DNA from: a virus
Taxonomy: Duplodnaviria; Caudoviricetes
Virus record (IMG/VR): IMGVR_UViG_3300034073_002120
Direction: 5' to 3' (one strand)
DNA length: 64,000 nt
Positions 25,281 to 62,085 of the stretch are shown here, piece by piece; position 1 is the first letter of the stretch, and each line of letters opens with the position of its first letter. A model generated the notes under the pieces. The model was not told the origin of the DNA and ran no database searches. It worked only from the letters and a program-made list of their open reading frames with translations. Position numbers and translations under genes: made by a program.

Positions 25281-26456
25281 TTAAAATGAAAAAAATTTAT
25301 TTATTGTTTCCTTATCAACTCTACTCTCCTTTCGCATCTCATCAATTGGTTTTAGTAATTCATCATATCCATCTATTGGTTCACCAACATACTCATGACA
25401 ATATGATGCTCGTTGATACATTGTCTTATACACCTCTGAATGGTCATTATTATCGTTTCTAATCTTTCCGTTAAATAAAGTAGGTTTCCAACTTTCGGTA
25501 TGAATATTTCGATAAATACCCAACGCAGGATTGATAGTTTTAGTGTAATACTTTGCATGCATATTTTTAAGAATACCACCACTCCATTCAGATATTTTAC
25601 TACCAATACTCATTCCTTGATAATCTGGATGAACTACGATTCTACTTTCTCTGAATACTTTGAATCCACCATTCTTACCCAAATGTCTTCCAATTACATT
25701 TATTGCTACAGGTTTATCGTTCCATTCAAATAGAAGATAGATGTAGGTTTTGTTTGCGTTTTGTGTTAGATAATGATGTTCTTTGAAGAAGTCCCAAGCT
25801 TCAGGTTCAACCCTACTAACTGATAAAGTGATTTCCGGTCTCCCTTGCCGAAGATAGTCAGGTCTTTCGAACCCGCCTCCTTTTGATGGTGAATATATCC
25901 AATCCGGCATTATCCACTCCATAATATCAAAGTGACAGGATGCTAAGATAATCTTTTTTCCTTCCCTACGAATGTATTTTTGTAATGCGAAACTCATTGC
26001 CTTTGCAACATCTCTATCAACAACCGATGTGTATTCATCAATTAAAATAGTATCACCATCTTTTGCAGATGAAACTAAATATGCAAGATATGCACGATAT
26101 TGTTCTCCATTACTTAATAAACGAAACGGTCTTAACCAAGTGGGAACTGATGATAATCCTATCGATGTTAGGACTCTTGTTGCCTCTTCTGGTTCTAACC
26201 AATCAAAATTAGATATAAGTGGTTTATCTTCATCAAACTTAACATCTTTACTACCACCCAATTCTTTTAATATAGTTGATTTACCACTACCACTTCCGCC
26301 ATATATGACACCAATATTCCAATCAAACGAATTTAATCCATCTAAATTCATAGGAATTGTAACTTGTGTTTCTTCTCTATTTTGTATATCAAACGCATTA
26401 TACACATATTCGGTGTATTTATCGTTTTGTATTTTAGATGTAAGTGTGATATTCAT
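25281..26456 (-). CDS. ABC-type ATPase fused to GNAT acetyltransferase (COG2401-like)
   Basis: GGSGSGKST, LSNGE, IDEYTSVVDR, then SRIVVHPDYQGMSIG. Confidence 0.85.
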   Translation of the reverse strand: MNITLTSKIQNDKYTEYVYNAFDIQNREETQVTIPMNLDGLNSFDWNIGVIYGGSGSGKSTILKELGGSKDVKFDEDKPLISNFDWLEPEEATRVLTSIGLSSVPTWLRPFRLLSNGEQYRAYLAYLVSSAKDGDTILIDEYTSVVDRDVAKAMSFALQKYIRREGKKIILASCHFDIMEWIMPDWIYSPSKGGGFERPDYLRQGRPEITLSVSRVEPEAWDFFKEHHYLTQNANKTYIYLLFEWNDKPVAINVIGRHLGKNGGFKVFRESRIVVHPDYQGMSIGSKISEWSGGILKNMHAKYYTKTINPALGIYRNIHTESWKPTLFNGKIRNDNNDHSEVYKTMYQRASYCHEYVGEPIDGYDELLKPIDEMRKESRVDKETINKFFSF

Positions 26457-32819: not shown

Positions 32820-33524
32820 ATGATAATTTACACAAACGGATGTTCACATACGGCAGGTCATTGTATGAAACGTGATAAAACGTGGCCAATGATTGTTATG
32901 AAAAGTATTATAGGTTCTCAAGCATATTCGACAAATATTGTACCATCTATTATTAAAAAAGATTCGCACGTATTATACAATCAAGCAATGCATGGTGCAG
33001 GAAATGATTATATATTCCATAAAAGTTTAGAAACTATTTTGGCATTGATACATAGTGGTAATAAACCAGATTATGTAATCATTCAGTGGTCTGGTCCAAA
33101 TCGTAGAATGCACTCTGATGAAGATGGTAAGTATGTATTTGTAAACCCGTGGGATAATTCACATTTAGGAGTAAAATTTGAACCTATGGGTAGTCAACAT
33201 ACATTACATTATATGTTTGCGTTACAAGAAGTTTTAAAAAAACATAATATAGAATATTGGTTTTTTAATTATATGGAATTGTCAAAATTGGTTAAAAAAT
33301 CAAATGTATATAATGAAATGGATTTAACAAGAATATTAGATTTTAATTCAAATATTACTATGTTTGATGGGTTAATAGATTTTTTTAAATTAAATGAAAT
33401 GAATTGTGATGTGGGTGGTCATCCAAATGAACTTGGTAATTATTTTATAGGTAAACATATCGTTGATAAACTTGGATATGATTGTATAGATTATTCTAAA
33501 TTTTACAATACACTATTCATATAA
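32820..33524 (+). CDS. SGNH/GDSL-fold hydrolase or acyltransferase
   Basis: YTNGCSHTAG, GAGND, GGHPNELGN; ends NTLFI. Confidence 0.6.
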   Translation: MIIYTNGCSHTAGHCMKRDKTWPMIVMKSIIGSQAYSTNIVPSIIKKDSHVLYNQAMHGAGNDYIFHKSLETILALIHSGNKPDYVIIQWSGPNRRMHSDEDGKYVFVNPWDNSHLGVKFEPMGSQHTLHYMFALQEVLKKHNIEYWFFNYMELSKLVKKSNVYNEMDLTRILDFNSNITMFDGLIDFFKLNEMNCDVGGHPNELGNYFIGKHIVDKLGYDCIDYSKFYNTLFI

Positions 33525-34078
33525 TGGATATTAAATTATTTGATAATCGAATATTAGCACCTGCTAAATGTGGTACTAGACATTTACGAAAAATATTTAA
33601 AGATAAACGTTTTGATGTAAATAGCGATAATCTTAAACAAATAACACATATTGTTATACGAAACCCATATGAACATTTTGAATCTGCAATTCATACTGAA
33701 TATGTAAATTTTAAAAACACCCATAATTCAATTCAAAATATAGAACATATACTTCGTGGTACTATAAATGAAAATGGAATAGGTCATTGGAATCCTAAAA
33801 CTTATAGATTTTTGTATTCTATTTTTATACAAAATCCATCAATACAAATTATTGAATTATCAGATTTATCTAATTTTTTAGTATCAGAAGGATATTCAAT
33901 TCCACATAACAAATCAGAATATGATTGGTCTGAATTTGGGTTTAACATATCTAAAGAATTCGTTTTATTAGAATTCAAAAATAAGTTTAAACAAGAATTT
34001 GAAATGGTAAACAAAAAATTAGAAATTGAAATGATTTATTATACAAAATTATTAAATATGAGTATAGAAATACAATAA
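33524..34078 (+). CDS. Sulfotransferase-like protein
   Basis: PAKCGT (5'-PSB-like) and IRNPYEHFES (3'-PB-like). Confidence 0.55.
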   Translation: MDIKLFDNRILAPAKCGTRHLRKIFKDKRFDVNSDNLKQITHIVIRNPYEHFESAIHTEYVNFKNTHNSIQNIEHILRGTINENGIGHWNPKTYRFLYSIFIQNPSIQIIELSDLSNFLVSEGYSIPHNKSEYDWSEFGFNISKEFVLLEFKNKFKQEFEMVNKKLEIEMIYYTKLLNMSIEIQ

Positions 34079-34122
34079 TAAAACAACCTAGTGGAGTATC
34101 ACCACCTTTTTTCAGTTTACAT

Positions 34123-34131
34123 ATATTTATA
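34123..34131 (+). promoter_or_regulatory. Putative late promoter ATATTTATA
   Basis: 20 nt upstream of the Hint-domain gene. Confidence 0.55.
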
Positions 34132-34151
34132 GAGAAGAAATACTAAGACAT

Positions 34152-36419
34152 ATGAAGGGAACATTTTTTTCAGCAGATTTTATTAAAGATACTACTGGCA
34201 ATTTAAGATTAATGGAAGTAAATACTGATACCGGTTGTGTACCAAATGGACTTTCTTTTTTAGATTACACAAATTTTATAGAAATACTATCTGCTTCAGC
34301 TATAACTGAATTACATACAATTCACAAAGAAATTCATACAGATATTGTAGCAGAATTATCACAAAGTATATTTTCAAACGCACCATTTATAATATCGTTT
34401 GATTCTACAATTGAGGAAGCTGGTACTATTTATCCAACTGCAATAACTGATAGTTCTACAAAATTTATCTTACGTTTTGCGTATGATGAAGCATCCATTT
34501 TTGATTCCGAATATGCTAAAAGTGTATTAGGACCATTACAATTATTTACAGAAAATAATGATACTGCATCAATTGTAGAATATTCGTTTTCATCATCCGT
34601 ACAAGGATTTGAATTTGATAATTTACCAAAAGATTTTAATACTACAAACATACCAGATGTGGCAGTTAAAGATACATCTGCAAATACAACACATCCAATA
34701 TCATTTTATAAGATTGGTAAATCATCTGAAACAACGGATGATAGATGGAGTGAATTCACTGGTTCATTATCCGATGATAAATTAATTATTAAATTTTACG
34801 AAGATGCTTCGGAAACAAAAGTAACATCGGTTCGTTCATTTAATATTATTTATGGTAGTAATTTAGATTTAATAAACGTTGGAAATTATACAACAGAAGG
34901 ATTATTTGTAAAACCAACATCAATTGAATACGATGATACACAAATAGCAAATGAGATTGATGTAAAACACTATTATGAATTAACAACAAATTATCCAAAA
35001 TTTACAAATGTTTATAATTGGGGTGGTATATTCGAAGAAGAAGAAATTATTAAAGCAGATGGTACTACCATATTGATTGGAAGTGCATCAGTTGGAGATG
35101 AATTTAAATCTTATTTTATAAATGGAGCACCTGATACCGATGTGGTTTCTACTTTTATGGCGTGGTCACATGCTGGTTCAGAATTACCATCTGGTTCATA
35201 TGCTACTAGTTCTGTTTTAATCAATAAAATAGAACAACCCCTTTTATACAATCTGGCATTTCATTTAACTATGGAAGATGGTTCTGAATTTAGAGCATCT
35301 GGTGGAGTTCATTTGTTAGTACATGATATTGATTTAAATTGTATTCGTTATGAATCAATAGCAAAATTAGATGAAACTAAACATCAGTTAATTAATTTAA
35401 CAGGTGGATTAATCAATATTGATTCAATTGTAATAGAAATATTAGATGGTGATTATAAAACATATATTATTGATATGGAGACATCTGATACTTATTTCTT
35501 ATCAAATGGAGAATTAAGTGTTAAGATTGTTACACATAACTGCTTCCCTGCTGGAACTAAAATTACTTTAGCAGATGGTACTCAAAAGAATATTGAAGAT
35601 TTATTATTAACTGATAAAATCTTAACATATAACGAATTTACAGGTGAAAAAACAGAAGGTGTTATTGGGAATATCGTAAAGAAAAAAGAACATCTATTAA
35701 TCAGACACAAAACTGATGATGGTAATGAAGTTAAATCTACTGCATTACATAAGTTCTATGTTAAAGGTAAAGGATGGATTGCTGCACAAGATATTACATT
35801 AAATGATATTCTAATTAATAGAAATGGCAATGAAACTATTGTAACTGAAAAGGAAACGATTGTTGGTGAGGTTGAGGTTTATCATATTTTAGATGTTAAA
35901 GATAATCACACATATTATGCTGAAAACTTATTAGTTCATAACTTTAAATATAGTGGTGGTTCTTGCTTTGTTGCTGGAACTAAGGTAGTTATGGGAGATG
36001 GTTCTCAAAAGAATATTGAAGATGTAGTAATTGGTGATGAGGTACTTTCATTTAATGAATCAACTTTACAAAATGAAGTTAAAAAAGTAATTGGTTTAAA
36101 AACTCCAATTCACAACGATTTAGTTAAATACGAATTTGCAAATCAAACTTCAATAGTATGTACGTTTGACCATCCATTCTATGTTGGTGATTTAGAATTG
36201 GCATCTTATACTCCATTCTTAACAAACAAACGTTACGAATTAGATAAAGAAGTTAAACAAATCAAAACTGGTGATATGGTTTACTTATCAAATGGTGTAA
36301 GTAGAACTGCTATTAAAGATATAATAGAGTTAGATGAGAAAGATACTCAAACTTATATCATAACAGTCGAAGATAATCACAATTTTTACGCTAACCAAAT
36401 TTTAGTACATAATAAATAA
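34152..36419 (+). CDS. ATP-grasp-like N-terminal domain plus three tandem Hint (intein-like/BIL) domains
   Basis: ADFIKDTTGNLRLMEVNTDTG; Hint1 G292-N463, Hint2 C464-N597, Hint3 C605-N754. Confidence 0.8.
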   Translation: MKGTFFSADFIKDTTGNLRLMEVNTDTGCVPNGLSFLDYTNFIEILSASAITELHTIHKEIHTDIVAELSQSIFSNAPFIISFDSTIEEAGTIYPTAITDSSTKFILRFAYDEASIFDSEYAKSVLGPLQLFTENNDTASIVEYSFSSSVQGFEFDNLPKDFNTTNIPDVAVKDTSANTTHPISFYKIGKSSETTDDRWSEFTGSLSDDKLIIKFYEDASETKVTSVRSFNIIYGSNLDLINVGNYTTEGLFVKPTSIEYDDTQIANEIDVKHYYELTTNYPKFTNVYNWGGIFEEEEIIKADGTTILIGSASVGDEFKSYFINGAPDTDVVSTFMAWSHAGSELPSGSYATSSVLINKIEQPLLYNLAFHLTMEDGSEFRASGGVHLLVHDIDLNCIRYESIAKLDETKHQLINLTGGLINIDSIVIEILDGDYKTYIIDMETSDTYFLSNGELSVKIVTHNCFPAGTKITLADGTQKNIEDLLLTDKILTYNEFTGEKTEGVIGNIVKKKEHLLIRHKTDDGNEVKSTALHKFYVKGKGWIAAQDITLNDILINRNGNETIVTEKETIVGEVEVYHILDVKDNHTYYAENLLVHNFKYSGGSCFVAGTKVVMGDGSQKNIEDVVIGDEVLSFNESTLQNEVKKVIGLKTPIHNDLVKYEFANQTSIVCTFDHPFYVGDLELASYTPFLTNKRYELDKEVKQIKTGDMVYLSNGVSRTAIKDIIELDEKDTQTYIITVEDNHNFYANQILVHNK

Positions 36420-36429
36420 GGATTTCACT

Positions 36430-36567
36430 ATGGCACAAATATATAAAACATTTACTAAAAGTGATTTGGACAACAAACAAGTTGTAACAACTACACCAAC
36501 TATAAATCAACAAGTTAATGTCATTTTAACTAATTTTATCCAATACATTAAGGATAAACATATGTAA
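36430..36567 (+). CDS. 45-aa peptide
   Basis: MAQIYKTFTKSDLDNKQVVTTTPTINQQVNVILTNFIQYIKDKHM fills the gap between two genes. Confidence 0.6.
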   Translation: MAQIYKTFTKSDLDNKQVVTTTPTINQQVNVILTNFIQYIKDKHM

Positions 36568-36581
36568 TTAAACTTACTTAA

Positions 36582-37088
36582 ATGGTTATATTTTCTAAAG
36601 AAGAGTGTGAGTATATAAAGTCATTTTATTCATTATACGATGAAGTTGATGGTATGGATACTCACACTCTGAATGGCATTCAAATAAAATTCAGAAAAGG
36701 TAGTTCTGCCAAATTTGTAACAATTGATAATTCTGAACTAAAGAATTTTCTCTTACAAAAACTTACACCCTTAAAGGTAAAAAATATACCTACCATAAAA
36801 ATTATGAAATATGGTAAAGGTGGTAGTTTGGCTAAACATCAAGATTTTTCCAAATACGGAGTTGATATAATTTACAAAACTTTATTAGTTCAATTATCAG
36901 AATCATCTGATTATATAGGAGGTGATTTAATTGTAGAAAATACTCCGCAATCTAGAGTAATCGGTTCAATAACGTCTATATCACCTACTGCGGAACATGA
37001 AGTAACTATGTTAGAAGATGGTGAACGATATTCATTAGTTCTGTTTTTACATGAAAGTGATTTTGATATTTCAAAAAATATAATTTAA
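36582..37088 (+). CDS. 2OG-Fe(II) oxygenase
   Basis: HQD, GGDL, HEV...RYSLV; ends SKNII. Confidence 0.85.
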   Translation: MVIFSKEECEYIKSFYSLYDEVDGMDTHTLNGIQIKFRKGSSAKFVTIDNSELKNFLLQKLTPLKVKNIPTIKIMKYGKGGSLAKHQDFSKYGVDIIYKTLLVQLSESSDYIGGDLIVENTPQSRVIGSITSISPTAEHEVTMLEDGERYSLVLFLHESDFDISKNII

Positions 37089-37474
37089 TGTTTAAAAAAT
37101 ATAATTTTGAATCAAGAGGAATAGGAATTATTTCATCTACATCAATTACATCCAATACCTTTATTGGTAATTACTTTACAAAATCAGAAACTATATCGAC
37201 AGAAAGTAGACTCATTTACGAAGGATGGGTTGAAACTAACCCATTAGGTAGATATTTAAATCATAATAGAATTCCAAATTGTAATTTAGAATTAGATGGT
37301 GATGCTATTAAAATATATACTAATAGAGATATTAATCAATTTGAAGAATTAACTATAAATTATTTAGATATTATCAAAATAATAGAATTACCGATGCGAT
37401 TAATAAACAAATATGGAGTATTTGATTTTGATTATATTGAAGAAAAAGTAATTATAAAACAAAATTTAATATGA
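37088..37474 (+). CDS. SET-domain protein
   Basis: GRYLNHNRIPNC, RDINQFEELTINY; ends KQNLI. Confidence 0.8.
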   Translation: MFKKYNFESRGIGIISSTSITSNTFIGNYFTKSETISTESRLIYEGWVETNPLGRYLNHNRIPNCNLELDGDAIKIYTNRDINQFEELTINYLDIIKIIELPMRLINKYGVFDFDYIEEKVIIKQNLI

Positions 37475-38214
37475 AACTAATTTATAGTTACTCCACTAAA
37501 ATGGGTAATTACGATGATAATGATTGGATATTACTTTTATACAAAGGTGCAATTACTCGTTCAAAACAATTGGGATATACTATTAAATTATATGGTTGTG
37601 ATTTTACTTATCAAAAATTGAAGGATGTAGTAGATGAATATGTAGATATTACAAATGAAGAGTTTGTTCTTACTGATGATTTAAAATTATACATACATTC
37701 AAAAGAAGACTTAGATTGTGTTACAATCGATGGTGATATAATATTAGAATCTAAATTAAATTTGCCAACTAATTGTGATATGATATATGAAATAAAGGGA
37801 GTGGTTAAATCTAAAACACAAACTAAATTTCAAAGATATTTAAATATTTTTAAAGATTATGATATTACATCTAATATAGATTATTTTAACTATAATACAC
37901 TATACGCATGTAGTGTTGGTATTCTTAAATTCAATAATAAAGAAACAAAGGAATTATTTATATCCACTTATTATAAATTTAGAAAATACTTTATAGATAA
38001 TATTAAATCAGATAATCGTCTATTTAAAAAAGATGACCCTGCAATAATTGTATGTGAATATATGTTTGCATGTTTGTTAGAAGGCACCGAATATGTTGGT
38101 AAAGAATGTAATAATATAAATGATTATACTCATTATATGTCATTAACTAAATTTACACCTACCGCATGGAAACATGTTGATTCTATCTTAAATCCTACAA
38201 CTAAATTGTTATAA
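37471..38214 (+). CDS. GT-A-like nucleotidyl/glycosyltransferase-like protein
   Basis: TIDGDIIL DxD motif, YTHY; paralog of the next gene; ends TTKLL. Confidence 0.5.
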   Translation: MKLIYSYSTKMGNYDDNDWILLLYKGAITRSKQLGYTIKLYGCDFTYQKLKDVVDEYVDITNEEFVLTDDLKLYIHSKEDLDCVTIDGDIILESKLNLPTNCDMIYEIKGVVKSKTQTKFQRYLNIFKDYDITSNIDYFNYNTLYACSVGILKFNNKETKELFISTYYKFRKYFIDNIKSDNRLFKKDDPAIIVCEYMFACLLEGTEYVGKECNNINDYTHYMSLTKFTPTAWKHVDSILNPTTKLL

Positions 38215-38915
38215 TGAATTTAATATATACATTTGATAAAACTGTAAATACAGATTCACATAAAATAGATGTATTAAAATCGTATTATACGAATAGCATT
38301 AATTCTGCTAAACTATTAGGATATAAAACTGAATTATATTCTAATTGTGATTGGTTTGATGATTTAGTAGATATTAAACATATAATAACCGATGAATTTG
38401 TTTTTTGGGATGCATTCAAAACTATACCACTAAATAGAAATGATGATTATATATTAGTAGATGGTGATGTTATATTTCATAATAGATTACCAAAGTTAGA
38501 TGATTCAGTAGATGTATATTTTGATGGATGGGAGAGTTGGTTAAGTATTTATGATGATTGTGTAAATGAATTAGATGGGTTAGGTATATCGGATATAATA
38601 CCTGAATGGAAAGTCGAAAAACAAAGAGTTATGAACATAGGAACTCTTAAAATTAATAATAAAGAATTAAAAGAATTATATTTAGACAGATGGTTTAAAT
38701 TATATGAATTTTGTAAAGTTAGAAAAGATACTTTAAAAACATTTGATTTATGTTGTACCATAACATCTCAATATCTTTTAACGTTATTATCAAATCAATA
38801 TAATATTCATAATTTTTCGGATAGATTACGAGTACCAAATAGTTATTATACACATTATGTAGGTAAAGAGAAATATAATTTACCGATTCCGAAAATCAAT
38901 AAAACGCTGATATAG
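38214..38915 (+). CDS. GT-A-like nucleotidyl/glycosyltransferase-like protein
   Basis: LVDGDVIF DxD motif, MNIGTL, YTHYVG; ends NKTLI. Confidence 0.5.
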   Translation: MNLIYTFDKTVNTDSHKIDVLKSYYTNSINSAKLLGYKTELYSNCDWFDDLVDIKHIITDEFVFWDAFKTIPLNRNDDYILVDGDVIFHNRLPKLDDSVDVYFDGWESWLSIYDDCVNELDGLGISDIIPEWKVEKQRVMNIGTLKINNKELKELYLDRWFKLYEFCKVRKDTLKTFDLCCTITSQYLLTLLSNQYNIHNFSDRLRVPNSYYTHYVGKEKYNLPIPKINKTLI

Positions 38916-38917
38916 TT

Positions 38918-39334
38918 ATGATAAATTTAAAAGTAGCAACAAAGGTAGAAGTTAAAGAATCACCGATACATGGAATGGGTGTATTTGCTATTGAAGAAAT
39001 CAAAGCAGGTGAAGTGATTGAGGAATGTCATTTAATAACACTTCCATTTAAACCAGGCGAACAATCATTTTTTCTATATGATTATAAATTCAATTATCCG
39101 GCAGAAGGTAAGTTAGAAGAATATGTTTTACCATTAGGTAATGGGTGTATATATAATCATTCTGATACTAATAATGCATATTGGAGAAACCACCCACAAC
39201 ATAAGGCATTTCAGTTTGTTGCTATCAAAGATATAAAAGTAGGTGAAGAAATTTGTACTTATTATGGTGATGCTAATTATTGGAAATTAGTAGAAACATT
39301 TAAAACTAAAAATATCAAATTATCTATAATATGA
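38918..39334 (+). CDS. SET-domain protein-lysine methyltransferase
   Basis: SPIHGMGVFA, YNHSDTNNA, KDIKVGEEICTYY; ends KLSII. Confidence 0.9.
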   Translation: MINLKVATKVEVKESPIHGMGVFAIEEIKAGEVIEECHLITLPFKPGEQSFFLYDYKFNYPAEGKLEEYVLPLGNGCIYNHSDTNNAYWRNHPQHKAFQFVAIKDIKVGEEICTYYGDANYWKLVETFKTKNIKLSII

Positions 39335-40584
39335 AAATATATGTACACCACTATTATAGTAAAATACTTTTTTATAAATTAGCACATAATAGTAATAATA
39401 AATTTATTGAAGTTGATTTAAATACCAATATTGGTTCTGCATATTGTAATTATAATGGTGTAGATATTGAATTTTATTTTAATCCAGAAATAAATGATAA
39501 TACTGATGGGTTACATTTATTAGATTTTTTTTCAGCATTACTACAAAGATATACAGATTCTACCTATATGGAATTGAATATTGGTGATGTACAAGATACA
39601 CCAATAGTTAGTAAATTTGTAGAACTATTAGAAAATAAAAAAAATTGGATAATTACATTATTTAGAACTGAGCGTATTTTAACAAAAAGTGATTTAGATA
39701 CTACCATACACATAGATGAGTTAGAATCACAAATACAATTGTTAAAAAATCACAAAATAATATCTGATAATTTATTTATAAATGATAATATTAGATATAG
39801 ATTTCCAAACATTTATTTTGCATTTACAAATACAATATGGCAATGGAATGAAATAATTGGAATACGATGGTATTATGAATACAAACAAATATTTGAGAAA
39901 TTAAATTTTGATTATGATTTAATGTATTCAGTTCGTAATCATAAAAAATATAGATGTGATATATTAAAAGGTTTGGCTAAACTAAATAATAAAAAATTAT
40001 TATTACAAAGAACCAATTCAGCACCGGTAAGTAAATTTTATAACACATATGAAAATGAATTATCAGAAATAGATAATATTCATTTTAATTCAATTAATGG
40101 TACTACCGATTTTGAAAATATAACTTTAATACAATATCAAAGTGGATTGACTTGGGATTTATGGTTTAGAATGCTATCAAAAGCCAAAATTCAAATATTA
40201 GATGAAAGTTGGGCTCATTCTAAAGATGAATTTCAAAATCAATATTTTTCTGAAAAAACATTAGGATTAGTTCTTGCAAATATACCATTTGTATCTACTC
40301 ATTCATATCCATTAGAAATGTTACAAAAAGTATTAAACATTTCAGAACATCCGTTTTATAATGAAGCAAAATTATATAAAGGTAATGTAGATTTATTTGT
40401 ATCGTTTATTGATTCCTTTTTAAAAAATTTTGATGAGAACTATAAAAAAATAAAGGAATGGACAAATGAATGTCATATTGCGTTTGTTAAAAAAATAGAA
40501 TCGGAAAATACTATGTTAGATATGTTATTAGATGATTTTAAAACAGAAAATGATAAAATTAATTCAAATAAAAAGTTTTTGTAA
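39331..40584 (+). CDS. Putative glycosyltransferase-like protein (GT10-like FSEKT motif)
   Basis: QILDES...FSEKT...IPFV; ends NKKFL. Confidence 0.4.
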   Translation: MKIYVHHYYSKILFYKLAHNSNNKFIEVDLNTNIGSAYCNYNGVDIEFYFNPEINDNTDGLHLLDFFSALLQRYTDSTYMELNIGDVQDTPIVSKFVELLENKKNWIITLFRTERILTKSDLDTTIHIDELESQIQLLKNHKIISDNLFINDNIRYRFPNIYFAFTNTIWQWNEIIGIRWYYEYKQIFEKLNFDYDLMYSVRNHKKYRCDILKGLAKLNNKKLLLQRTNSAPVSKFYNTYENELSEIDNIHFNSINGTTDFENITLIQYQSGLTWDLWFRMLSKAKIQILDESWAHSKDEFQNQYFSEKTLGLVLANIPFVSTHSYPLEMLQKVLNISEHPFYNEAKLYKGNVDLFVSFIDSFLKNFDENYKKIKEWTNECHIAFVKKIESENTMLDMLLDDFKTENDKINSNKKFL

Positions 40585-41063
40585 TGAAATTATATAACGA
40601 TACTGAATTAAAATTTTTAAATTCATTTTGGGAAAATGTAGATTATCGAAAGTTTGATGATAGAAGTTATGAATTTGCTGTTATGATGAATAACGAGATG
40701 GATATAACTACTAAATTATTAGATTGGTTTGAAAATGAAAGTGGTGAAAAACTTATACATAAGAAATATAGTTTAATAATACACAAATATAATGTTGGTG
40801 ATTATTTCGATAAACACATAGATTCGGTTGAACGTAATTATAAAAATAGAGCATATGTTGTTGGGTTTCATATAAACGATGAATATGATGGTGGTGATTA
40901 TATATTATATAACCCAAACGAAATCATAGATAAAGGACCAGGCGTACCTTACTGTTTTAAATCAAATAGATTGCATGAAATAACAAAAATAACAAATGGT
41001 ATTAGAAAAAGTGCATTGATTTTTATCAATCACGAAGATTTAGTAAAAAAGAATTTATTATGA
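40584..41063 (+). CDS. 2OG-Fe(II) oxygenase
   Basis: HID, YDGGD, HEI...RKSA; ends KKNLL. Confidence 0.85.
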   Translation: MKLYNDTELKFLNSFWENVDYRKFDDRSYEFAVMMNNEMDITTKLLDWFENESGEKLIHKKYSLIIHKYNVGDYFDKHIDSVERNYKNRAYVVGFHINDEYDGGDYILYNPNEIIDKGPGVPYCFKSNRLHEITKITNGIRKSALIFINHEDLVKKNLL

Positions 41064-41539
41064 TAAATTTTGAATTAAATATTTCAGATTATAACCAAAT
41101 TGAAGAACTTAGTATATTAAGATATAATGAAGTATTATCCGATGATATTAAAAAACTAATATATTTTTTTAATGAAGAATATAAATGGGATGGTATGTTT
41201 ATATTTGATGATGTTCAAACTAGAATAAATAATGGTCATCATTTGTTTATTTTATATTATGGTAATAACGCAATTGGTTATGTGTTTTATGAACCAAAAG
41301 AGAATAACGAATTTTATTTATATAATTTGTATGTTACAAATTGTTACAAAAGACCAAATTATTCAGCACAATGGTTTGTAAATAAAACTATTGGAATGTT
41401 GCCAATACCTATTTCGAAAATATCATGTATATGTGAAGATTGGCATGTTGCAGCTCATAATGTATTTACTATAAATGGATTTGAAACAAAAAAAAAGAGT
41501 CACCAAACTGATGACTCTTTACAAAAAATGAGAGATTAA
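41060..41539 (+). CDS. GNAT-fold acetyltransferase-like protein
   Basis: AIGYVFY, YLYNLYV, WHVAAHNVFTINGF. Confidence 0.45.
   Translation: MINFELNISDYNQIEELSILRYNEVLSDDIKKLIYFFNEEYKWDGMFIFDDVQTRINNGHHLFILYYGNNAIGYVFYEPKENNEFYLYNLYVTNCYKRPNYSAQWFVNKTIGMLPIPISKISCICEDWHVAAHNVFTINGFETKKKSHQTDDSLQKMRD
41488..41520 (-). terminator. Intrinsic terminator for the sHSP transcript
   Basis: aaagagtca-tcagtttgg-tgactcttt plus T run. Confidence 0.75.
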
Positions 41540-43044: not shown

Positions 43045-43625
43045 TCTAATACTATGTTTATTTGTTTTTTTACTTTATATTCTAAAATTGTACAAGTTAT
43101 TCGCATCGTATCACCTTTCATTTTGTAGATTGGTGCAATGACCGTATTTATTTCCCCGTTTGTGCCGGCATATGAAGATGTATTTATAGTTGGTACTAAC
43201 TCATCCTTCCAAGTAGTAATAGGGGGTAAATTAACGTAATTACGTGAACCATCGAGGGGATTGATATATAGTTTGGTTACGTTTGATATTGTATCACCTT
43301 TTAATAACCACCAAAATAAATTATTTTCCCATTCTACCTTTATTGGTTCAACTGAATTTTTAACATTACCAGTAATTCGATGTATTGTTTGTGTAGATGT
43401 TGAAATAAGTTGTAAATGATAATATCCGTTTTTATCTATTGGTAATCTACCATCCAATTCTAATGTTGGTGTTGGTTTGGTGGATGGGTTAGATAGCTGT
43501 GTAGTTTGTTGGGTTGGCCCCCATTGCGGTTCTCCAATATCCTCTTTACTACAAGCCGTAAATAGTAAACAGCCGAATACTAACCATTTAATTCTCATAA
43601 CAATTTGTTTAAGATTGCTTTCCAA
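43041..43625 (-). CDS. Putative lipoprotein
   Basis: Lipobox LFTA-C. Confidence 0.65.
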   Translation of the reverse strand: MESNLKQIVMRIKWLVFGCLLFTACSKEDIGEPQWGPTQQTTQLSNPSTKPTPTLELDGRLPIDKNGYYHLQLISTSTQTIHRITGNVKNSVEPIKVEWENNLFWWLLKGDTISNVTKLYINPLDGSRNYVNLPPITTWKDELVPTINTSSYAGTNGEINTVIAPIYKMKGDTMRITCTILEYKVKKQINIVLE

Positions 43626-44080
43626 TTCGGATACTCATTCCAAGTTTCGGTTTCATATGCCCAACCAAATCGTAACAACTCACCTCTAAACTCACCCGCT
43701 CCGTTTTTCAATCTATCATCGATTAAGTAATCACCACCTAAAAGGTCTTTTCGGTGAGTAACAATCATTTTCTTGTGGAATAAATCACCAAAGTATTCTT
43801 CAATCCAATAACGTTTATCAGAAGCAGAATCGGGATTTCCCCACGGGGCTGCGGTAGCGATGAATAATTCGTACTTACCACTTTCTGCCAATTTCTTAAC
43901 TGCCTCAATTGCCCCTTCGTATGGAGGAGGATTTCGGAATATACCAGGAATATGGTCAGGACATTTCTTATACTTTTCAATTAAATGTGGATGACGTTCG
44001 AACCATCTATCAAACTCTGCTTTCAAATCCACTAACACACCGTCCATATCGATGTAAACTATCTTTTTCTTTTCACTCAT
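43595..44080 (-). CDS. 5'(3')-deoxyribonucleotidase (HAD, NT5C family)
   Basis: VYIDMDGVLVD, ATAAPW, GDYLIDDR. Confidence 0.9.
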   Translation of the reverse strand: MSEKKKIVYIDMDGVLVDLKAEFDRWFERHPHLIEKYKKCPDHIPGIFRNPPPYEGAIEAVKKLAESGKYELFIATAAPWGNPDSASDKRYWIEEYFGDLFHKKMIVTHRKDLLGGDYLIDDRLKNGAGEFRGELLRFGWAYETETWNEYPNWKAILNKLL

Positions 44081-45794: not shown

Positions 45795-46160
45795 TTAATA
45801 AAATTTTATTCCGTGTCTTTCTTCGAATTTTTCAATAACTAATTCAGCAGATTTTTTATATCCTTTACTATCCAACATTTTATATGCTAATCTATCTGCC
45901 TCGATTTCATCATTTGGATTATGTTCTTTCGAATGACCTAATTGGTAATGTGCAACTTCATGTGCTTCAATAAACTTATGAACGACTTTTCCTAATTTAC
46001 GTTCGCCATCTATTACGATTAAATTAAATGCGGGGATGATAAATCCAAACCCATATTCATCAAACATAGGTTTGATTACATTATAACGGAAATCATCCTT
46101 TCCCATAATTGCAACTTCTAACGCAGAATTGAATTCACTTTTGAATTGTTTTGTTTTCAT
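45795..46160 (-). CDS. Small HExxH metallopeptidase-like protein (ImmA/IrrE-like)
   Basis: HEVAH...EIEAD. Confidence 0.6.
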   Translation of the reverse strand: MKTKQFKSEFNSALEVAIMGKDDFRYNVIKPMFDEYGFGFIIPAFNLIVIDGERKLGKVVHKFIEAHEVAHYQLGHSKEHNPNDEIEADRLAYKMLDSKGYKKSAELVIEKFEERHGIKFY

Positions 46161-46597
46161 ATAAATAATTTATAATCGGTTTCACGTTCGTAGGCAATCG
46201 TTTCATATGGGTGATTACTATAATCATACCCCATTTTATAATATCGAGTCATCCAACTCGGTGATTGCAAATAATGTTGATATTCGTGGATTAGGGTTCT
46301 AACCAAATCTTCGGTATTTTTTATATTTTTCCAATATATTATCAATTCATTATTTAGGGAACAATACTCACCAATCAAATCTTTATCATCTGCATCGGAA
46401 TATGGTGAATCTTCAATTACCAACCAGGGGCTTTCCATTTGGAATTTAGATTCTCCATAATGGGTTATTATCTTATCAAAGTATTGGTTAATTAGGCGGG
46501 ATATATCTCTCTTATTCATATATGCTAATATACGAACATTTATTGGATTTTCCAAATAAAAAGGGTAGTTTTTCACTACCCTTTGATTATCAATCAC
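46157..46597 (-). CDS. Small HExxH metallopeptidase-like protein
   Basis: LIHEYQHYLQ...HPYE. Confidence 0.6.
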   Translation of the reverse strand: MIDNQRVVKNYPFYLENPINVRILAYMNKRDISRLINQYFDKIITHYGESKFQMESPWLVIEDSPYSDADDKDLIGEYCSLNNELIIYWKNIKNTEDLVRTLIHEYQHYLQSPSWMTRYYKMGYDYSNHPYETIAYERETDYKLFI

Positions 46598-47337: not shown

Positions 47338-47697
47338 TTAAATTAACTTTTTGGTTTCTCTTTTCTTCCTCGTGGGTTTCTTATAGTTAAGTATGTCTTC
47401 TTTATATTTTACAATTTTACCACACATCTCATATTCCTCTTTTTCTTTGAACCATTCTAAACAATGGTCTAAGGCTTCGATGTATTCTTCTTTTGGAACT
47501 AATGATATTGCCGATGCATTTGGATGAACTAAGATAGCAACTTCATCCCATCCTTTTAATCCGGCGTTGTGGATGTTTTGCGATACTTGATTCATTACAT
47601 CGAATCCTCGAGTTTCTAAAAACTTTTGAACTCTTTTATCATTAGTTGGTTCTAAATATTTTCGCCAATCGATTGTTGTAAAGGTTCTTCTTTTCAT
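47338..47697 (-). CDS. Hypothetical protein with EEYExC motif
   Basis: 119 aa; ends TKKLI. Confidence 0.55.
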   Translation of the reverse strand: MKRRTFTTIDWRKYLEPTNDKRVQKFLETRGFDVMNQVSQNIHNAGLKGWDEVAILVHPNASAISLVPKEEYIEALDHCLEWFKEKEEYEMCGKIVKYKEDILNYKKPTRKKRETKKLI

Positions 47698-48832: not shown

Positions 48833-49010
48833 CGTTACGATTGTATTCTTTTATGGCACCTAAAATAAGAACACCAACCATAATACCACCAAATACTTCT
48901 AATATAGAACTATGATTGTAGGGATTTTTATAACTATCATAGACATAAACACAAAGTGTAACTACTACAATAGGTAATATACCTTTCATGTACTCATTTA
49001 AGTGATTCAT
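48822..49010 (-). CDS. Small membrane protein
   Basis: Two hydrophobic helices. Confidence 0.5.
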   Translation of the reverse strand: MNHLNEYMKGILPIVVVTLCVYVYDSYKNPYNHSSILEVFGGIMVGVLILGAIKEYNRNDEV

Positions 49011-49026
49011 AAATAATTAATTAAAT

Positions 49027-49103
49027 TGGTGGGCCAGATAGGAATCGAACCTATTACCTACTGATTATGAGTCAGTTGCTCTAACCGAATGAGCTACAAG
49101 CCC
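49027..49103 (-). tRNA. tRNA with CAT anticodon (probably Ile2/lysidine)
   Basis: GGGCTTG/TGGCCC acceptor, ACTGA-CTCATAA-TCAGT, encoded CCA. Confidence 0.9.
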
Positions 49104-49158
49104 TTAATCGTTTATATTAACGATAAAGTTGAATATCGTATGTTTCAACGATAAATAA

Positions 49159-49278
49159 GGTGCCGGTGGTAGGATTGGATACCTACACGATGTCCATTTC
49201 GGATACACCCCCTTACTAGTATTACAGGACGTCTAATAGTTTTATTCGAATTCAAACTATTCTTTCCGCCACACCGGC
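49159..49278 (-). ncRNA. tRNA-like RNA with hairpin inserted in D-loop and non-canonical anticodon and T loops
   Basis: Perfect GCCGGTG/CACCGGC acceptor, A73, long variable arm. Confidence 0.7.
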
Positions 49279-49283
49279 ATATG

Positions 49284-49357
49284 TGGAGATGATAGGAATC
49301 GAACCTACGACCCTCTGCGTGCAAGGCAGATGCTCTAGCCAACTGAGCTACATCCCC
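49284..49357 (-). tRNA. tRNA-Ala(TGC)
   Basis: Canonical cloverleaf, G3-U70. Confidence 0.95.
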
Positions 49358-49364
49358 AATATTG

Positions 49365-49449
49365 TACCTGAAGAGGGACTTGAACCCACACGCCCATTAC
49401 TGGACAACAGATTTTAAGTCTGTCTTGTCTACCATTCCAACATTCAGGC
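49365..49449 (-). tRNA. tRNA-Leu(TAA)
   Basis: Cloverleaf with long variable arm. Confidence 0.93.
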
Positions 49450-49454
49450 AAATT

Positions 49455-49862: not shown

Positions 49863-49910
49863 AATTTTTGGGTTTGGTTTATTTTAAGGTTTAAAGTTTT
49901 AACTTTTATG

Positions 49911-49982
49911 TAGCCCCACTAAGAATCGAACTTAGAAATCCTCTTTAGAAGAGAGGTGTTATATCCATTTAACTATGGAGCC
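49911..49982 (-). tRNA. tRNA-Arg(TCT)
   Basis: CCTCT-CTTCTAA-AGAGG. Confidence 0.92.
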
Positions 49983-49983
49983 A

Positions 49984-50060: not shown

Positions 50061-50064
50061 GATT

Positions 50065-60366: not shown

Positions 60367-62085
60367 TTATATAAGATTTCTCTTTACAATTTCGGGTAAC
60401 GATATTAATATCGGCTCTGGTGTATCTTCTACCACCTCCGGTTCAATTATTTGGGTTTCTATTTCTTCTTTCAATTCTAAATACAATCCTCTATTATAAA
60501 CTGAATATGGTATTCCAATTTTTATAAAAAGTTCTTCGGCCCTATTTAATCTATCCAATCTATCCATCGGTGTATTGTATTTTGTTGAAAAATTTACACC
60601 ATTTATATATTCAATCCATTCTTGCTCAGTATCTCTCCATCGTATTAATAAAGGTTGATGTATTAGAAAAGCAGAACAAGTTAAAATTTCAGACATTACA
60701 TCATAATATTCTGCCACAAAATCTAATGTCTTTTGAAAATCTTCTTCACTTTCGTTTAAGTATCCGATAATTAATTGCATTGCAAACATCAACGGCCATT
60801 CATTTTCTTTATTTATTTGTCTTACGTTTTCAAATATCTCTCTAACACCTTCCATATTATTATACTTTTTCATATGGTCTAATACGGGTTCGGATGCAGA
60901 TTCAAAACCGGTAATCATTTTCATCAATCCAGCTTTACGATATAAACGCATTGTATCTAAATCTCGCATAGCAGATTGTAATCTCATATTACCACCCCAT
61001 GTGATATTGATATTTTTTTCTATTATTTTTTCACAAAATTCCTTCAACCATTTTGGATTACCATTAATGATTGAATCATGACAAAAGAAATTAGTATGAC
61101 CCTTAGCAACCCAGTGTTCGATTTCTTCAATAACATTATCAACGTTTCTATAACGAAACTCTGGTATAAAATCCGGCACTGAGCAGAATGAACATCTATA
61201 AGGACATCCTCTACTCATTACTAATGGAACATTATATTGATATATCGATTTATAATAGTAATTATCTTCTAATGAACTATAATCTGGATATGGAAGTGAA
61301 TCCATATTTACATTCTGACGAGGTCTATTATGAATAAATACCCCATTACATTGCCAAACCAATCCATTAATTTTCATTAAAGATTCTTCACTCCAATCCG
61401 ATTTAAGAATTTCAACGAATGTGATTTCACCATCTCCTCTAGAAATAGCATCTATGAATGTATAATTTTTTGTTACATAATTTGAATTAGGTAATTTACC
61501 AAAATCTAATACTTCAACTCCATTACCGCCCACTAATATTTTTACATGAGGGTATTTTTCTTTTATCAATTTAGCAATAGCAAGTGTTGCATCAACATTA
61601 CCATCGATAATACTAAATCCTAAAAATGCAGGATTAGCTTTTTCAATATATCTACCCACAAAACCATATGCAATATCAAATATCTCTTTATGATTATAAA
61701 GTAATTCGTATTGTCCTTGTTTTGAATAGGTGTTAAAAAGATTAAAAAACTCACCTTGTTTATCAGGTGGATTTAAGAAAAAATAATCAATTACAGGGTC
61801 TATAATTGCAACCCTTAAATCTGGATGAAATTTATCTATATAAGATTTTAATGCAACTATACCGGAATAGTAACCAGATTCATTAATGTTTGGGACTTGT
61901 AATAATAAACAATCTTGTTCTTCAATATCTTCAAAATGAAATTTATGTTGAATTTCAATTTTAGAATTTTTTGCAATATTATTTTGTCTGATGTATTGTA
62001 GTAAATCTACTTTTACATCAAAAATTTCAGTACCATTTTCTAGTTGGTCTTTTAATCTAATTTCAGTATTTGTAAGTTCTTGCAT
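60367..62085 (-). CDS. Cobalamin-binding radical SAM enzyme
   Basis: B12-binding-like region (LGFSII...ILVGG), SRGCPYRCSFC, GFES; ends KRNLI. Confidence 0.88.
   Translation of the reverse strand: MQELTNTEIRLKDQLENGTEIFDVKVDLLQYIRQNNIAKNSKIEIQHKFHFEDIEEQDCLLLQVPNINESGYYSGIVALKSYIDKFHPDLRVAIIDPVIDYFFLNPPDKQGEFFNLFNTYSKQGQYELLYNHKEIFDIAYGFVGRYIEKANPAFLGFSIIDGNVDATLAIAKLIKEKYPHVKILVGGNGVEVLDFGKLPNSNYVTKNYTFIDAISRGDGEITFVEILKSDWSEESLMKINGLVWQCNGVFIHNRPRQNVNMDSLPYPDYSSLEDNYYYKSIYQYNVPLVMSRGCPYRCSFCSVPDFIPEFRYRNVDNVIEEIEHWVAKGHTNFFCHDSIINGNPKWLKEFCEKIIEKNINITWGGNMRLQSAMRDLDTMRLYRKAGLMKMITGFESASEPVLDHMKKYNNMEGVREIFENVRQINKENEWPLMFAMQLIIGYLNESEEDFQKTLDFVAEYYDVMSEILTCSAFLIHQPLLIRWRDTEQEWIEYINGVNFSTKYNTPMDRLDRLNRAEELFIKIGIPYSVYNRGLYLELKEEIETQIIEPEVVEDTPEPILISLPEIVKRNLI

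What the first reader, a model, noticed from the sequence alone, without database searches (positions are those of the whole stretch)
32820..41063. Unrelated modifying enzymes share one C-terminal tag (basic/polar then two hydrophobic residues)
Seen: eight enzymes of different folds in the island end NTLFI (SGNH), SKNII (2OG), KQNLI (SET), TTKLL and NKTLI (GT-A-like), KLSII (SET), NKKFL (GT10-like) and KKNLL (2OG). The B12-radical SAM about 19 kb away ends KRNLI. The tag usually follows a short tail beyond the catalytic fold. The final residues use varied codons (TTG TTA, CTG ATA, TTT TTG, CTT ATA), and two cases do not overlap the next start, which argues for protein-level selection. Inference: the tag is a docking or targeting signal that recruits a suite of PTM enzymes to a common scaffold, substrate, virion-assembly site or protease, like PDZ ligands or encapsulin cargo peptides. 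Caveat: an AT-rich genome with TAATG/ATGA overlaps biases last codons to Ile/Leu, and a few genes outside the island end similarly (TKKLI at 47338, LNKLL at 43595, YKLFI at 46157).
Basis: partly seen in the sequence, partly recalled or inferred. Interest (0 to 1): 0.85.

Follow-up and report, generated by a model that had tools for sequence, protein, structure and literature searches.

The report
Shared end-tag on phage tailoring enzymes
In uncultured aquatic T4-like phages, nearly every enzyme encoded beside one self-cleaving, precursor-like protein ends in the same four residues (Lys, Ser/Thr, Leu, Ile); this ending is kept by selection and probably acts as a label that brings the enzymes to a common partner.

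Summary
Eight of 12 island ORFs end in two hydrophobic residues, against 5 of 74 elsewhere in the window.

The tail is kept at the protein level:
- Orthologues at 25-60% identity keep it: GT-A-like 42/43, 2OG 59/60, GT10-like 26/38.
- It persists where no downstream gene overlaps.
- Its codon use matches internal codon use.
- It sits on a flexible tail beyond the fold.

The consensus is hydrophobic-x-K-[S/T/N/K]-[L/I]-[I/L]-COOH.

New here: the tag is tied to a cassette. This consists of the Hint protein (H, 34152-36419), a 45-aa ORF (S, 36430-36567) and an array of tagged enzymes. Across 40 non-redundant H loci, 76% of genes within five genes of H are tagged, against 18% at eight or more genes away. 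The difference holds in every overlap class. Seventeen unrelated families are at least 80% tagged, including Trp halogenase (21/21).

The same enzyme families in cultured phages, where no H homologue was found, are untagged.

The most likely role is a docking label read by H or S, but this is inferred and was not tested. The DNA-overlap explanation is essentially excluded. This scan had already noted the same tag on another genome (e1-5320974).

The parts
32820..33524 (+). SGNH/GDSL-like enzyme (234 aa). Tagged, tail NTLFI; stop overlaps the next start (TAATG).
   Evidence: The orthologue L008:6497-7204 (55% identity) ends VSLL. No Pfam hit.
33524..34078 (+). Unknown 184-aa protein, untagged (ends IEIQ).
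34152..36419 (+). H protein (755 aa), untagged. It has an N-domain with an ATP-grasp-like D9/E22-x-N24 triad, a degenerate Hint-like block, and two Hint domains separated by the spacer FKYSGGS. It ends VHNK. It is the centre of the cassette.
   Evidence: Pfam Hint families. Alignments A3, A4 and A5. 40 non-redundant homologous loci. Weak RimK-like hits in 4 of 39 members.
36430..36567 (+). S, a 45-aa ORF directly after H. Untagged, with a conserved C-terminal helix ending K-x-K-H.
   Evidence: Alignment A2. Present right after H in 38 of 39 loci. No Pfam hit.
36582..37088 (+). 2OG-Fe(II) oxygenase (168 aa). Tagged, tail SKNII.
   Evidence: Orthologues end KSML and KSLI.
37088..37474 (+). SET-domain protein (128 aa). 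Tagged, tail KQNLI (ATGA overlap).
   Evidence: Orthologues end KELI and KNII.
37471..38214 (+). GT-A-like protein (247 aa; DxD motif). Tagged, tail TTKLL.
   Evidence: Orthologues end KRIL and KSII.
38214..38915 (+). GT-A-like protein (233 aa). Tagged, tail NKTLI; TAG stop, then 2 nt before the next ATG.
   Evidence: 42 of 43 homologues are tagged. The AlphaFold model has pLDDT 85; residues 210-233 are flexible and the last four are below 50. Weak GT-A/GT8-like matches.
38918..39334 (+). SET-domain protein (138 aa). Tagged, tail KLSII.
   Evidence: 65 of 120 homologues are tagged; tail-less relatives end directly after the fold.
39331..40584 (+). GT10-like protein (417 aa; a lead only). Tagged, tail NKKFL.
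   Evidence: All 11 relatives in L001-L010 are tagged, 6 of them with at least 28 nt after the stop. 26 of 38 full-length representatives are tagged. GT10 lead.
40584..41063 (+). 2OG-Fe(II) oxygenase (159 aa). Tagged, tail KKNLL.
   Evidence: 59 of 60 homologues are tagged.
41060..41539 (+). Unknown 159-aa protein that closes the array. Untagged here and in its homologues.
60367..62085 (-). B12-binding radical SAM enzyme (572 aa). Tagged (KRNLI) although about 24 kb from H.
43595..44080 (-). NT5C-type 5'-nucleotidase (161 aa) ending NKLL. A possible outlying client or a chance match.
46157..46597 (-). Unknown 146-aa protein ending KLFI. Its homologue in L010 ends KMFI.
47338..47697 (-). Unknown 119-aa protein ending KKLI, with a 15-nt gap to the next start.

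Best explanation
The tail is a short linear recognition label selected at the protein level. Its consensus is hydrophobic(-6)-x-K(-4)-[S/T/N/K](-3)-[L/I](-2)-[I/L](-1)-COOH. It sits on a flexible linker of variable length and marks the tailoring enzymes of one phage cassette.

The cassette has three parts:
- H, a precursor-like protein. It has an N-domain with an ATP-grasp-like metal triad. It ends either in real Hint domains or, in relatives, in a Hint-like block followed by a conserved Cys/Trp-rich peptide of about 29 aa.
- S, a conserved 45-aa protein encoded directly after H.
- An array of 3 to 12 enzymes: 2OG oxygenases, SET proteins, GT-A-like and GT10-like transferases, SGNH/GDSL proteins, radical SAM enzymes and Trp halogenases.

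Proposed mechanism (inferred): the free C-terminal carboxylate and the two hydrophobic side chains dock into a pocket on H or S. Many unrelated enzymes are thereby recruited to the same substrate protein, whose peptide is then released by Hint-type cleavage. This would resemble cargo peptides, clamp-binding motifs or dockerins, but with the recognition peptide on the enzymes rather than on the substrate.

Shown: the motif, its selection and its restriction to the cassette.
For: Enrichment in the window: 8 of 12 island ORFs against 5 of 74 elsewhere.

Conservation where the rest of the tail diverges:
- GT-A-like 42/43.
- 2OG 59/60.
- GT10-like 26/38, with one distant subclade untagged.
- SET 65/120, with tail-less relatives.

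Not a DNA effect:
- Intergenic translation-start regions predict only 0.114 (ATGA frame) and 0.06 (TAATG frame) hydrophobic pairs.
- 23 of 59 tagged island genes do not overlap the next start, and 10 have gaps of 10-372 nt.
- Codon use at the tag equals internal codon use.

Structure: the tag lies on a variable linker (alignment A1) and has low pLDDT beyond a confident fold.

Link to the cassette:
- In nine related islands, 59 of 70 island genes are tagged against 19 of 151 flanking genes (p = 1e-25).
- Across 40 non-redundant H loci, 271 of 355 genes within 5 genes of H are tagged, against 58 of 317 at 8 or more genes away (p = 6e-54).
- 25 of 27 comparable loci show near greater than far. 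The tagged fraction decays with gene offset from H.
- The difference holds in every overlap class.
- 17 unrelated families are at least 80% tagged; 26 flanking families are at most 20% tagged.
- S follows H in 38 of 39 loci.

Same enzyme families in cultured phages, where no H homologue was found:
- Pelagibacter phage HTVC008M (34% GC, overlapping 2OG operon plus a halogenase): 0 of 7 carry the tag.
- The P-SSM2, S-RIM44 and S-H38 halogenases: 0 of 3, against 21 of 21 in H cassettes.
- The S-SSM7 2OG genes lack the label; two of six end in two hydrophobic residues without the Lys.
- Mel-JY01, the closest cultured relative, is at background.

Internal control: in L057, overlapping sugar-nucleotide, GT4 and methyltransferase genes directly beside the array are untagged.

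Reader candidate: the H N-domain keeps D9, E22 and N24 invariant, and 4 of 39 members give weak RimK-like ATP-grasp hits. From my own knowledge, that fold binds peptide C-terminal carboxylates.
Against: The H N-domain model failed (pLDDT 46). Profile searches found no solved relative. No PDZ_2 (PF13180) match was found in the two complete related genomes; other PDZ families and TPR were not searched.

Some tagged genes lie far from H in the same genome. Examples are the B12/radical SAM enzyme about 24 kb away in the window and scattered cases in G001 and G002, so proximity is not obligatory.

L010 has three tagged genes and no H in a 25-kb fragment, but that fragment is only about 12% of a genome.

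Genes with ATGA overlaps are moderately enriched for hydrophobic pairs even far from H (0.34). A minor DNA or translation component therefore exists.

Confidence: 0.5

Rival explanations
1. The label docks the enzymes onto a third-party hub that is not encoded in the cassette. Candidates are a host protein, or a phage protein such as the sliding clamp, the neighbouring Hsp20 or the capsid interior (a cargo-loading peptide). H would be only the common substrate.
For: Tagged genes also occur far from H. Hsp20 lies next to the island in the window and in L001-L005 and L008. C-terminal hub-binding peptides are a common solution (my own knowledge).
Against: The polymerases of the related genomes end KKFFSF. 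A window ORF (25281-26456) ends NKFFSF and a 69-aa ORF in G001 ends NAFFF. The inferred clamp motif is therefore different.

The tag frequency tracks distance from H, not from Hsp20. Cultured phages, in which no H homologue was found, carry the same enzyme families untagged, in some cases alongside annotated clamp-loader or capsid genes.
Confidence: 0.18
2. The tail is a degron. Basic residues followed by two non-polar C-terminal residues would be read by a host AAA+ protease, as with the MuA-type ClpX signal, so that the whole enzyme set is removed together.
For: The chemistry resembles the ClpX C-motif 2 (basic residues plus non-polar C-terminal residues; my own knowledge). The motif is always at the extreme C-terminus, on a flexible tail.
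Against: No ClpP and no PDZ_2-type domain is found in the related complete genomes.

A degron does not explain why only genes beside H carry the tail. The same enzyme families in other phages lack it, as do neighbouring sugar-pathway genes. The preference for Ser/Thr at -3 and Lys at -4 is more specific than known non-polar degrons.
Confidence: 0.12
3. The tail is a substrate rather than a docking site. The ATP-grasp-like N-domain of H would activate the C-terminal carboxylate of the tagged proteins and ligate or cyclise it, for example onto an amine of H or onto the Lys at -4.
For: The D9/E22-x-N24 triad is invariant in 39 H proteins, and 4 members give weak RimK-like hits. RimK-type and glutathionylspermidine-synthetase-type ligases act on peptide C-terminal carboxylates (my own knowledge; lead from e1-5320975). 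The Lys at -4 is the most conserved non-hydrophobic position. Type B H proteins themselves end in K-[L/I/V]-COOH.
Against: The ATP-grasp assignment is weak (E about 0.01), with no fold model and no PDB relative. There is no obvious benefit in covalently modifying a dozen enzymes. No test was possible.
Confidence: 0.12
4. The tails are a by-product of DNA. AT-rich, Shine-Dalgarno-less translation start regions and ATGA or TAATG overlaps would bias the last codons to Ile, Leu and Lys.
For: Start regions here are A-rich at -13 to -10 and have T at -1 in 58% of cases. Genes with ATGA overlaps show raised hydrophobic pairs genome-wide (17 of 40; 0.34 far from H).
Against: The start-region null predicts only 6-11%. 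The near/far contrast holds within every overlap class, including gaps over 20 nt (0.56 vs 0.12). Codon use at the tag equals internal use.

The pattern is anchored to the stop codon in both overlap registers. AT-rich phages with overlapping operons of the same enzyme classes lack it, as do overlapping genes next to the array.
Confidence: 0.03

Closest known systems
Class I PDZ-binding motifs (X-[S/T]-X-hydrophobic-COOH)
   Same: Both lie at the extreme C-terminus and need a free carboxylate. Both have a hydrophobic last residue and frequent Ser/Thr two positions before it (43-66% here). Both are carried by many unrelated proteins on flexible tails.
   Different: No PDZ_2 domain was found in the related complete phage genomes. 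The penultimate residue here is also strongly hydrophobic, and Lys at -4 is conserved. The context is a bacteriophage.
Peroxisomal targeting signal 1 ([S/A/C]-[K/R/H]-[L/M]-COOH, read by the PEX5 TPR domain)
   Same: Both are a very short C-terminal label of basic, small polar and aliphatic residues, shared by many unrelated enzymes. The comparison was first made by the earlier agent (e1-5320974).
   Different: The order and length differ: K-[S/T]-L-I against S-K-L. PTS1 is a eukaryotic import system with no counterpart in these phages.
Encapsulin cargo-loading peptides and microcompartment encapsulation peptides
   Same: Both are C-terminal peptides on a flexible linker that send diverse enzymes to one protein partner. 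The label is encoded on genes clustered beside the partner gene.
   Different: The consensus is different (my own knowledge: encapsulin peptides are Gly/Ser/Leu-rich and longer). No shell gene is part of the cassette. The clustered partner here is a Hint-bearing, precursor-like protein.
Sliding-clamp binding motifs (T4 gp43/gp33/gp55 tails; bacterial QL[S/D]LF; PIP box)
   Same: Many client enzymes share a short, hydrophobic, often C-terminal motif that docks on one hub.
   Different: In this lineage the polymerase tail is KKFFSF, a different motif. The clients here are protein- or peptide-modifying enzymes rather than replication proteins.
RiPP leader-peptide recognition, including large structured NHLP leaders engaged by halogenases (PMC12537861, PMC10858898; abstracts only)
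   Same: One precursor is modified by many tailoring enzymes encoded around it, including flavin-dependent Trp halogenases, 2OG oxygenases and radical SAM enzymes. The non-core part of the precursor is large.
   Different: In known RiPP systems the recognition peptide is on the substrate and the reader domain is on each enzyme. Here the conserved peptide is on every enzyme. The proposed release by a Hint domain is not a known RiPP route.

Membership tests
Class I PDZ ligand | Motif X-[S/T]-X-hydrophobic at the extreme C-terminus | tested here: inconclusive
   The last residue is I or L in over 80% of tagged genes. Ser/Thr at the third-last position is 43% in type A loci and 66% in type B loci; the rest are K or N.
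Class I PDZ ligand | A PDZ-domain reader in the same system | tested here: not met
   PF13180 has no match in G001 or G002, while all 14 control genomes matched. Other PDZ families and the host were not searched.
PTS1 | Tripeptide [S/A/C]-[K/R/H]-[L/M]-COOH | tested here: not met
   The consensus is K-[S/T]-L-I, so the basic residue lies before the small residue. The last residue is Ile in 58-76% of cases.
T4-type or beta-clamp binding motif | Same motif as the C-terminus of the cognate replicative polymerase, or QL[S/D]LF | tested here: not met
   The PolB tails in G001 and G002 are KKFFSF. In the tag, -4 is Lys rather than a hydrophobic residue.
Encapsulin cargo-loading peptide | An encapsulin shell gene adjacent, and a matching peptide consensus | not tested
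   No shell-like gene was seen among the conserved cassette members, but no dedicated search was run.
ClpX C-motif degrons (LAA-COOH; MuA-type basic residues plus non-polar end) | C-terminal sequence that confers ClpXP-dependent turnover | not testable with these tools
   Only a chemical resemblance. No ClpP in G001 or G002. The host is unknown.
RiPP biosynthetic cluster | A ribosomal precursor with a core peptide, flanked by tailoring enzymes | tested here: inconclusive
   Relatives of H end in a conserved Cys/Trp-rich peptide after an HN junction. Cassettes hold Trp halogenase, 2OG, radical SAM and transferase genes. No chemistry was shown.
RiPP biosynthetic cluster | A leader on the substrate, read by a recognition element on the enzymes | not tested
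   No RRE search was run. The conserved peptide found here is on the enzymes.
ATP-grasp ligase (H N-domain) | Mg-binding D...E-x-N triad and the ATP-grasp fold | tested here: inconclusive
   D9, E22 and N24 are invariant in 39 sequences. RimK-like hits in 4 of 39 at E of 0.012 or worse. The model failed and there is no PDB hit.

The most novel reading that the evidence does not exclude
The cassette would be a phage-encoded peptide-maturation system that recruits enzymes in the reverse direction to known RiPP pathways. Every tailoring enzyme carries the same C-terminal recognition peptide. The finished Cys/Trp-rich or Hint-flanked peptide would then be released by Hint-type self-cleavage. New enzymes could join the pathway simply by acquiring four C-terminal residues.
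Probability: 0.3. Interest if true: 0.92.

Novelty: new variant of a known kind. Interest (0 to 1): 0.85.

Why it matters
If the label is a docking signal, it is a four-residue, plug-in address. With it, phages could assemble interchangeable sets of unrelated enzymes (halogenases, oxygenases, methyltransferases, glycosyltransferases, radical SAM enzymes) on one substrate.

That would explain how these hypervariable islands swap enzyme content so freely. It would also give viral Trp halogenases and 2OG oxygenases, whose natural substrates are to my knowledge unknown, a testable substrate. It could also be a minimal tag for engineering enzyme recruitment.

It is also a practical marker. The tag, together with H and S, identifies members of the pathway even when their folds are unknown.

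Tried and rejected
- **DNA-level cause.** Tested with a null from 166 intergenic start regions, stratification by overlap class, codon use and non-overlapping orthologues. Rejected as the main cause.
- **Canonical clamp binding.** Rejected because the polymerase tail is KKFFSF.
- **Phage-encoded PDZ or ClpP reader.** No PDZ_2 or ClpP match. The AAA hits are a clamp-loader-like gene beside the polymerase and one other protein.
- **Window genome and near relatives.** No whole genome is held. There is no near DNA match among cultured phages, and no GT10-like or H homologue there either.
- **Cellular homologues of the GT-A-like family.** The genome scan could not run because the alignment was too divergent.
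- **Context of the untagged GT10-like subclade.** Only 1-3 kb contigs were found, and no viral contig, so the neighbours are uninformative.
- **Fold of the H N-domain.** AlphaFold pLDDT was 46 with 6 sequences. PDB sequence and profile searches were empty. The Atlas returned only its own viral Hint clusters.
- **Hsp20 groove binding (IxI-type).** The register does not fit, and tag density follows H, not Hsp20.
- **Late-promoter or -10-like TATAAT at Ile-stop junctions.** Considered and dropped: it overlaps the next ATG and is absent from many tags.
- **Literature.** Searches found no description of such an enzyme-borne tag.
- **H in the L010 and L001 contigs.** The fragments cover only 10-12% of a genome, so the result is uninformative.

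Full report
**What the window is.** The 64-kb window is part of an AT-rich (about 30% GC) T4-like myophage. It encodes a baseplate wedge, ThyX, a helicase, PhoH, Hsp20 and a carbamoyltransferase. There is no near DNA match among cultured phages and no whole genome is held. The polymerase of related complete contigs is 50% identical to that of Microcystis phage Mel-JY01. The island at 32820-41539 lies on the opposite strand to its surroundings and has 25% GC.

**Check of the observation.**
- Eight of 12 island ORFs end in two residues from I, L or F, against 5 of 74 elsewhere in the window (Fisher p = 9e-6). The internal frequency of that dipeptide in island proteins is 0.056.
- The untagged island ORFs are the 184-aa protein, the 755-aa Hint protein, a 45-aa ORF and the 159-aa last gene.
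- Pfam confirms the two 2OG and two SET assignments.
- The two 233-247-aa proteins have a DxD motif and weak PF20508 hits. Their AlphaFold model (pLDDT 85) resembles GT-A/GT8-type transferases weakly.
- 'SGNH' and 'GT10-like' remain leads.

**DNA or protein?** The phage uses almost no Shine-Dalgarno sequences. Start regions are A-rich at -13 to -10 and have T at -1 in 58% of cases. Translating 166 intergenic start regions in the frames an overlapping upstream gene would use gives hydrophobic pairs in 11.4% (ATGA register) and 6% (TAATG register). In the window plus two complete related genomes, the observed values are 17 of 40 and 13 of 67.
- Among 59 tagged genes from nine islands, 20 have ATGA overlaps, 16 have TAATG overlaps, 13 have gaps of 0-5 nt and 10 have gaps of 10-372 nt.
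- Six of 11 GT10-like relatives are the last gene of their array, with at least 28 nt after the stop, and all keep K/T-x-hydrophobic-hydrophobic.
- Codon use at the two last positions (Leu: TTA 65%, TTG 24%, CTN the rest; Ile: ATA, ATT, ATC) mirrors internal use in the same genes.
- The pattern is anchored to the stop codon in both overlap registers, which differ by one codon (3 nt) relative to the next ATG.

**Conservation.** Relatives keep the ending while the preceding tail changes in sequence and length.
- GT-A-like: 42 of 43.
- 2OG (159 aa): 59 of 60.
- GT10-like: 26 of 38 full-length representatives out of 84 hits in 1.8 billion clusters. A 30%-identity subclade has another ending.
- SET: 65 of 120. 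Short relatives end directly after the fold.
- In alignment A1 the last conserved fold element is followed by 10-25 variable residues and then the pair. In the model, residues 210-233 lose confidence and the last four are below pLDDT 50.

This is the signature of a short linear motif on a flexible tail. It is not part of any one fold.

**The motif.** From 59 tagged island genes:

| Position | Residues (count of 59) |
|---|---|
| -1 | I 38, L 18 |
| -2 | L 34, I 18 |
| -3 | S, N, K or T |
| -4 | K 38 |
| -5 | K or N |
| -6 | I, L, V or F 31 |

In 297 tagged genes around H the consensus sharpens to K-[S/T]-L-I-COOH.

**The new result: a cassette.** Related islands contain different, often non-homologous enzymes, yet almost all are tagged: L008 10/10, L006 7/7, L005 7/8, L009 10/12. 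Flanking core genes are not tagged. Overall, 59 of 70 island genes against 19 of 151 flanking genes carry the tag (p = 1e-25). The order is conserved: the Hint protein (H), a 45-47-aa ORF (S), then the tagged enzymes.

Searching viral contigs with the H N-domain gave 80 loci, which form 40 clusters at 85% identity.
- The tagged fraction is 0.69-0.89 at gene offsets of 1 to 5 on either side of H, except 0.50 at +5. It falls to about 0.2 beyond offset 7.
- In total 271 of 355 near genes are tagged, against 58 of 317 far genes (p = 6e-54). Near exceeds far in 25 of 27 comparable loci.
- The contrast holds in every overlap class:

| Overlap class | Near H | Far from H |
|---|---|---|
| ATGA | 0.86 | 0.34 |
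| TAATG | 0.92 | 0.26 |
| gap 0-5 nt | 0.90 | 0.24 |
| gap 6-20 nt | 0.67 | 0.17 |
| gap over 20 nt | 0.56 | 0.12 |

- Seventeen BLAST families (312 proteins) are at least 80% tagged. They include 2OG oxygenases (74/75), Trp halogenase (21/21), a radical SAM family (17/21), GT-A-like (11/11), GT10-like (9/9) and several unknown families.
- Twenty-six flanking families are at most 20% tagged.
- S follows H in 38 of 39 loci.

**Negative controls.**
- Pelagibacter phage HTVC008M (34% GC) has an overlapping operon of 2OG genes and a Trp halogenase; none of the seven carries the tag.
- The halogenases of P-SSM2, S-RIM44 and S-H38 are untagged. The S-SSM7 2OG genes lack the label; two of six end in two hydrophobic residues without the Lys.
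- No cultured phage has an H homologue.
- Mel-JY01 has 14 of 236 hydrophobic pairs, and 3 strict tags against 1.5 expected. G001 and G002 have 10 against 1.7 and 8 against 1.1.
- In L057, overlapping sugar-nucleotide, GT4 and methyltransferase genes lie directly beside the tagged array and are untagged.

**What H and S look like.**
- The first roughly 300 residues of H keep D9, E22 and N24 invariant, the spacing of the ATP-grasp metal triad. Four of 39 members give weak RimK-like hits.
- A degenerate Hint-like block ending in HN follows.
- Type A proteins, including the window's, then carry one or two real Hint domains. In the window's protein the two are separated by the spacer FKYSGGS, and the protein ends HNK.
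- Type B proteins (about 495 aa) carry instead a conserved Cys/Trp-rich segment, a Gly/Pro-rich tail and K-[L/I/V]-COOH.
- Trp halogenases occur in about half of the loci.
- Together this suggests that H is a precursor whose C-terminal peptide is modified and then released. That is inference.
- Folding of the H N-domain failed (pLDDT 46) and no solved relative was found.

**Mechanism.** Shown: the label is selected at the protein level, is C-terminal, is shared by many folds and is restricted to the H-S cassette. Inferred: it docks the enzymes on H or S (confidence 0.5). Rivals:
- a hub encoded elsewhere (0.18);
- a degron (0.12);
- a substrate of H's ligase-like domain (0.12);
- a DNA by-product (0.03).

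The inferred clamp motif in this lineage is different (KKFFSF). No PDZ_2 or ClpP match is found in G001 or G002.

**Comparison and novelty.** The pattern formally resembles a class I PDZ ligand. In concept it resembles PTS1, encapsulin cargo peptides, clamp-binding motifs and dockerins, but it meets the definition of none of them. I found no description in the literature searched. RiPP systems with large structured leaders and peptide halogenases (PMC12537861, PMC10858898; abstracts only) are the nearest biosynthetic analogy, with the opposite polarity of recognition.

This scan had already noted the same tag and the ATP-grasp/Hint fusion on another genome (e1-5320974, e1-5320975). I saw those notes only after reaching the same consensus independently. 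That follow-up could not find a reader.

Noticed in passing
window 34152-36419; L133, L124, L084 and others: The H protein has two architectures. Type A ends in one or two real Hint domains; in the window's protein the two are separated by the spacer FKYSGGS, and it ends HNK. Type B (about 495 aa) ends after an HN junction in a conserved six-Cys, Trp-rich segment, then a Gly/Pro tail and K-[L/I/V]-COOH. It looks like a self-releasing peptide precursor.
   Followed up: partly
window 36430-36567: A 45-aa ORF directly after H is conserved in 38 of 39 loci. It starts MA, has a Thr/Ser/Pro-rich or PLS middle, and ends in an amphipathic helix with K-x-K-H. No family match. It is a candidate partner, reader or second substrate.
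   Followed up: partly
window 25281-26456 (minus strand): This 391-aa protein (PHROG 11143, weak GNAT hit) ends NKFFSF. That is nearly the same tail as the family B polymerases of G001 and G002 (KKFFSF) and resembles a 69-aa ORF in G001 (NAFFF). It is probably this lineage's sliding-clamp binding motif.
   Followed up: partly
whole window, gene starts: Translation start regions have almost no Shine-Dalgarno sequence. Positions -13 to -10 are about 64% A and position -1 is T in 58% of cases. Genes with ATGA overlaps are moderately enriched for hydrophobic last residues even outside the cassette.
   Followed up: yes
L057:13527-20051: In one relative, a sugar-nucleotide and glycan block lies directly next to the tagged array. 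It includes a GT4 plus methyltransferase fusion, methyltransferases, a DegT aminotransferase, an epimerase and GT9. It lacks the tag, so the label separates two sets of enzymes within one gene array.
   Followed up: partly
P0151-P0199 (SET homologues), L058:10001-10393: Other marine viral SET proteins carry a different appended tail (W-x-E-R-x-Y-I-x-K-[L/I]) or none. One tagged SET sits alone inside a 7-deazaguanine (QueC/QueD/QueE/FolE) cluster of a different phage.
   Followed up: no
window 19999-21729 (minus strand) and G001 59437-60213: In relatives, the carbamoyltransferase is followed directly by a tagged GDSL-like protein (ending GNKII or GNKLI). The carbamoyltransferase tails themselves are Lys-rich with a hydrophobic residue, but do not fit the tag.
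   Followed up: no
window 49000-57500: The region has few ORFs and higher GC. Other first-stage notes describe tRNA-like and structured RNAs there. I did not examine it.
   Followed up: no
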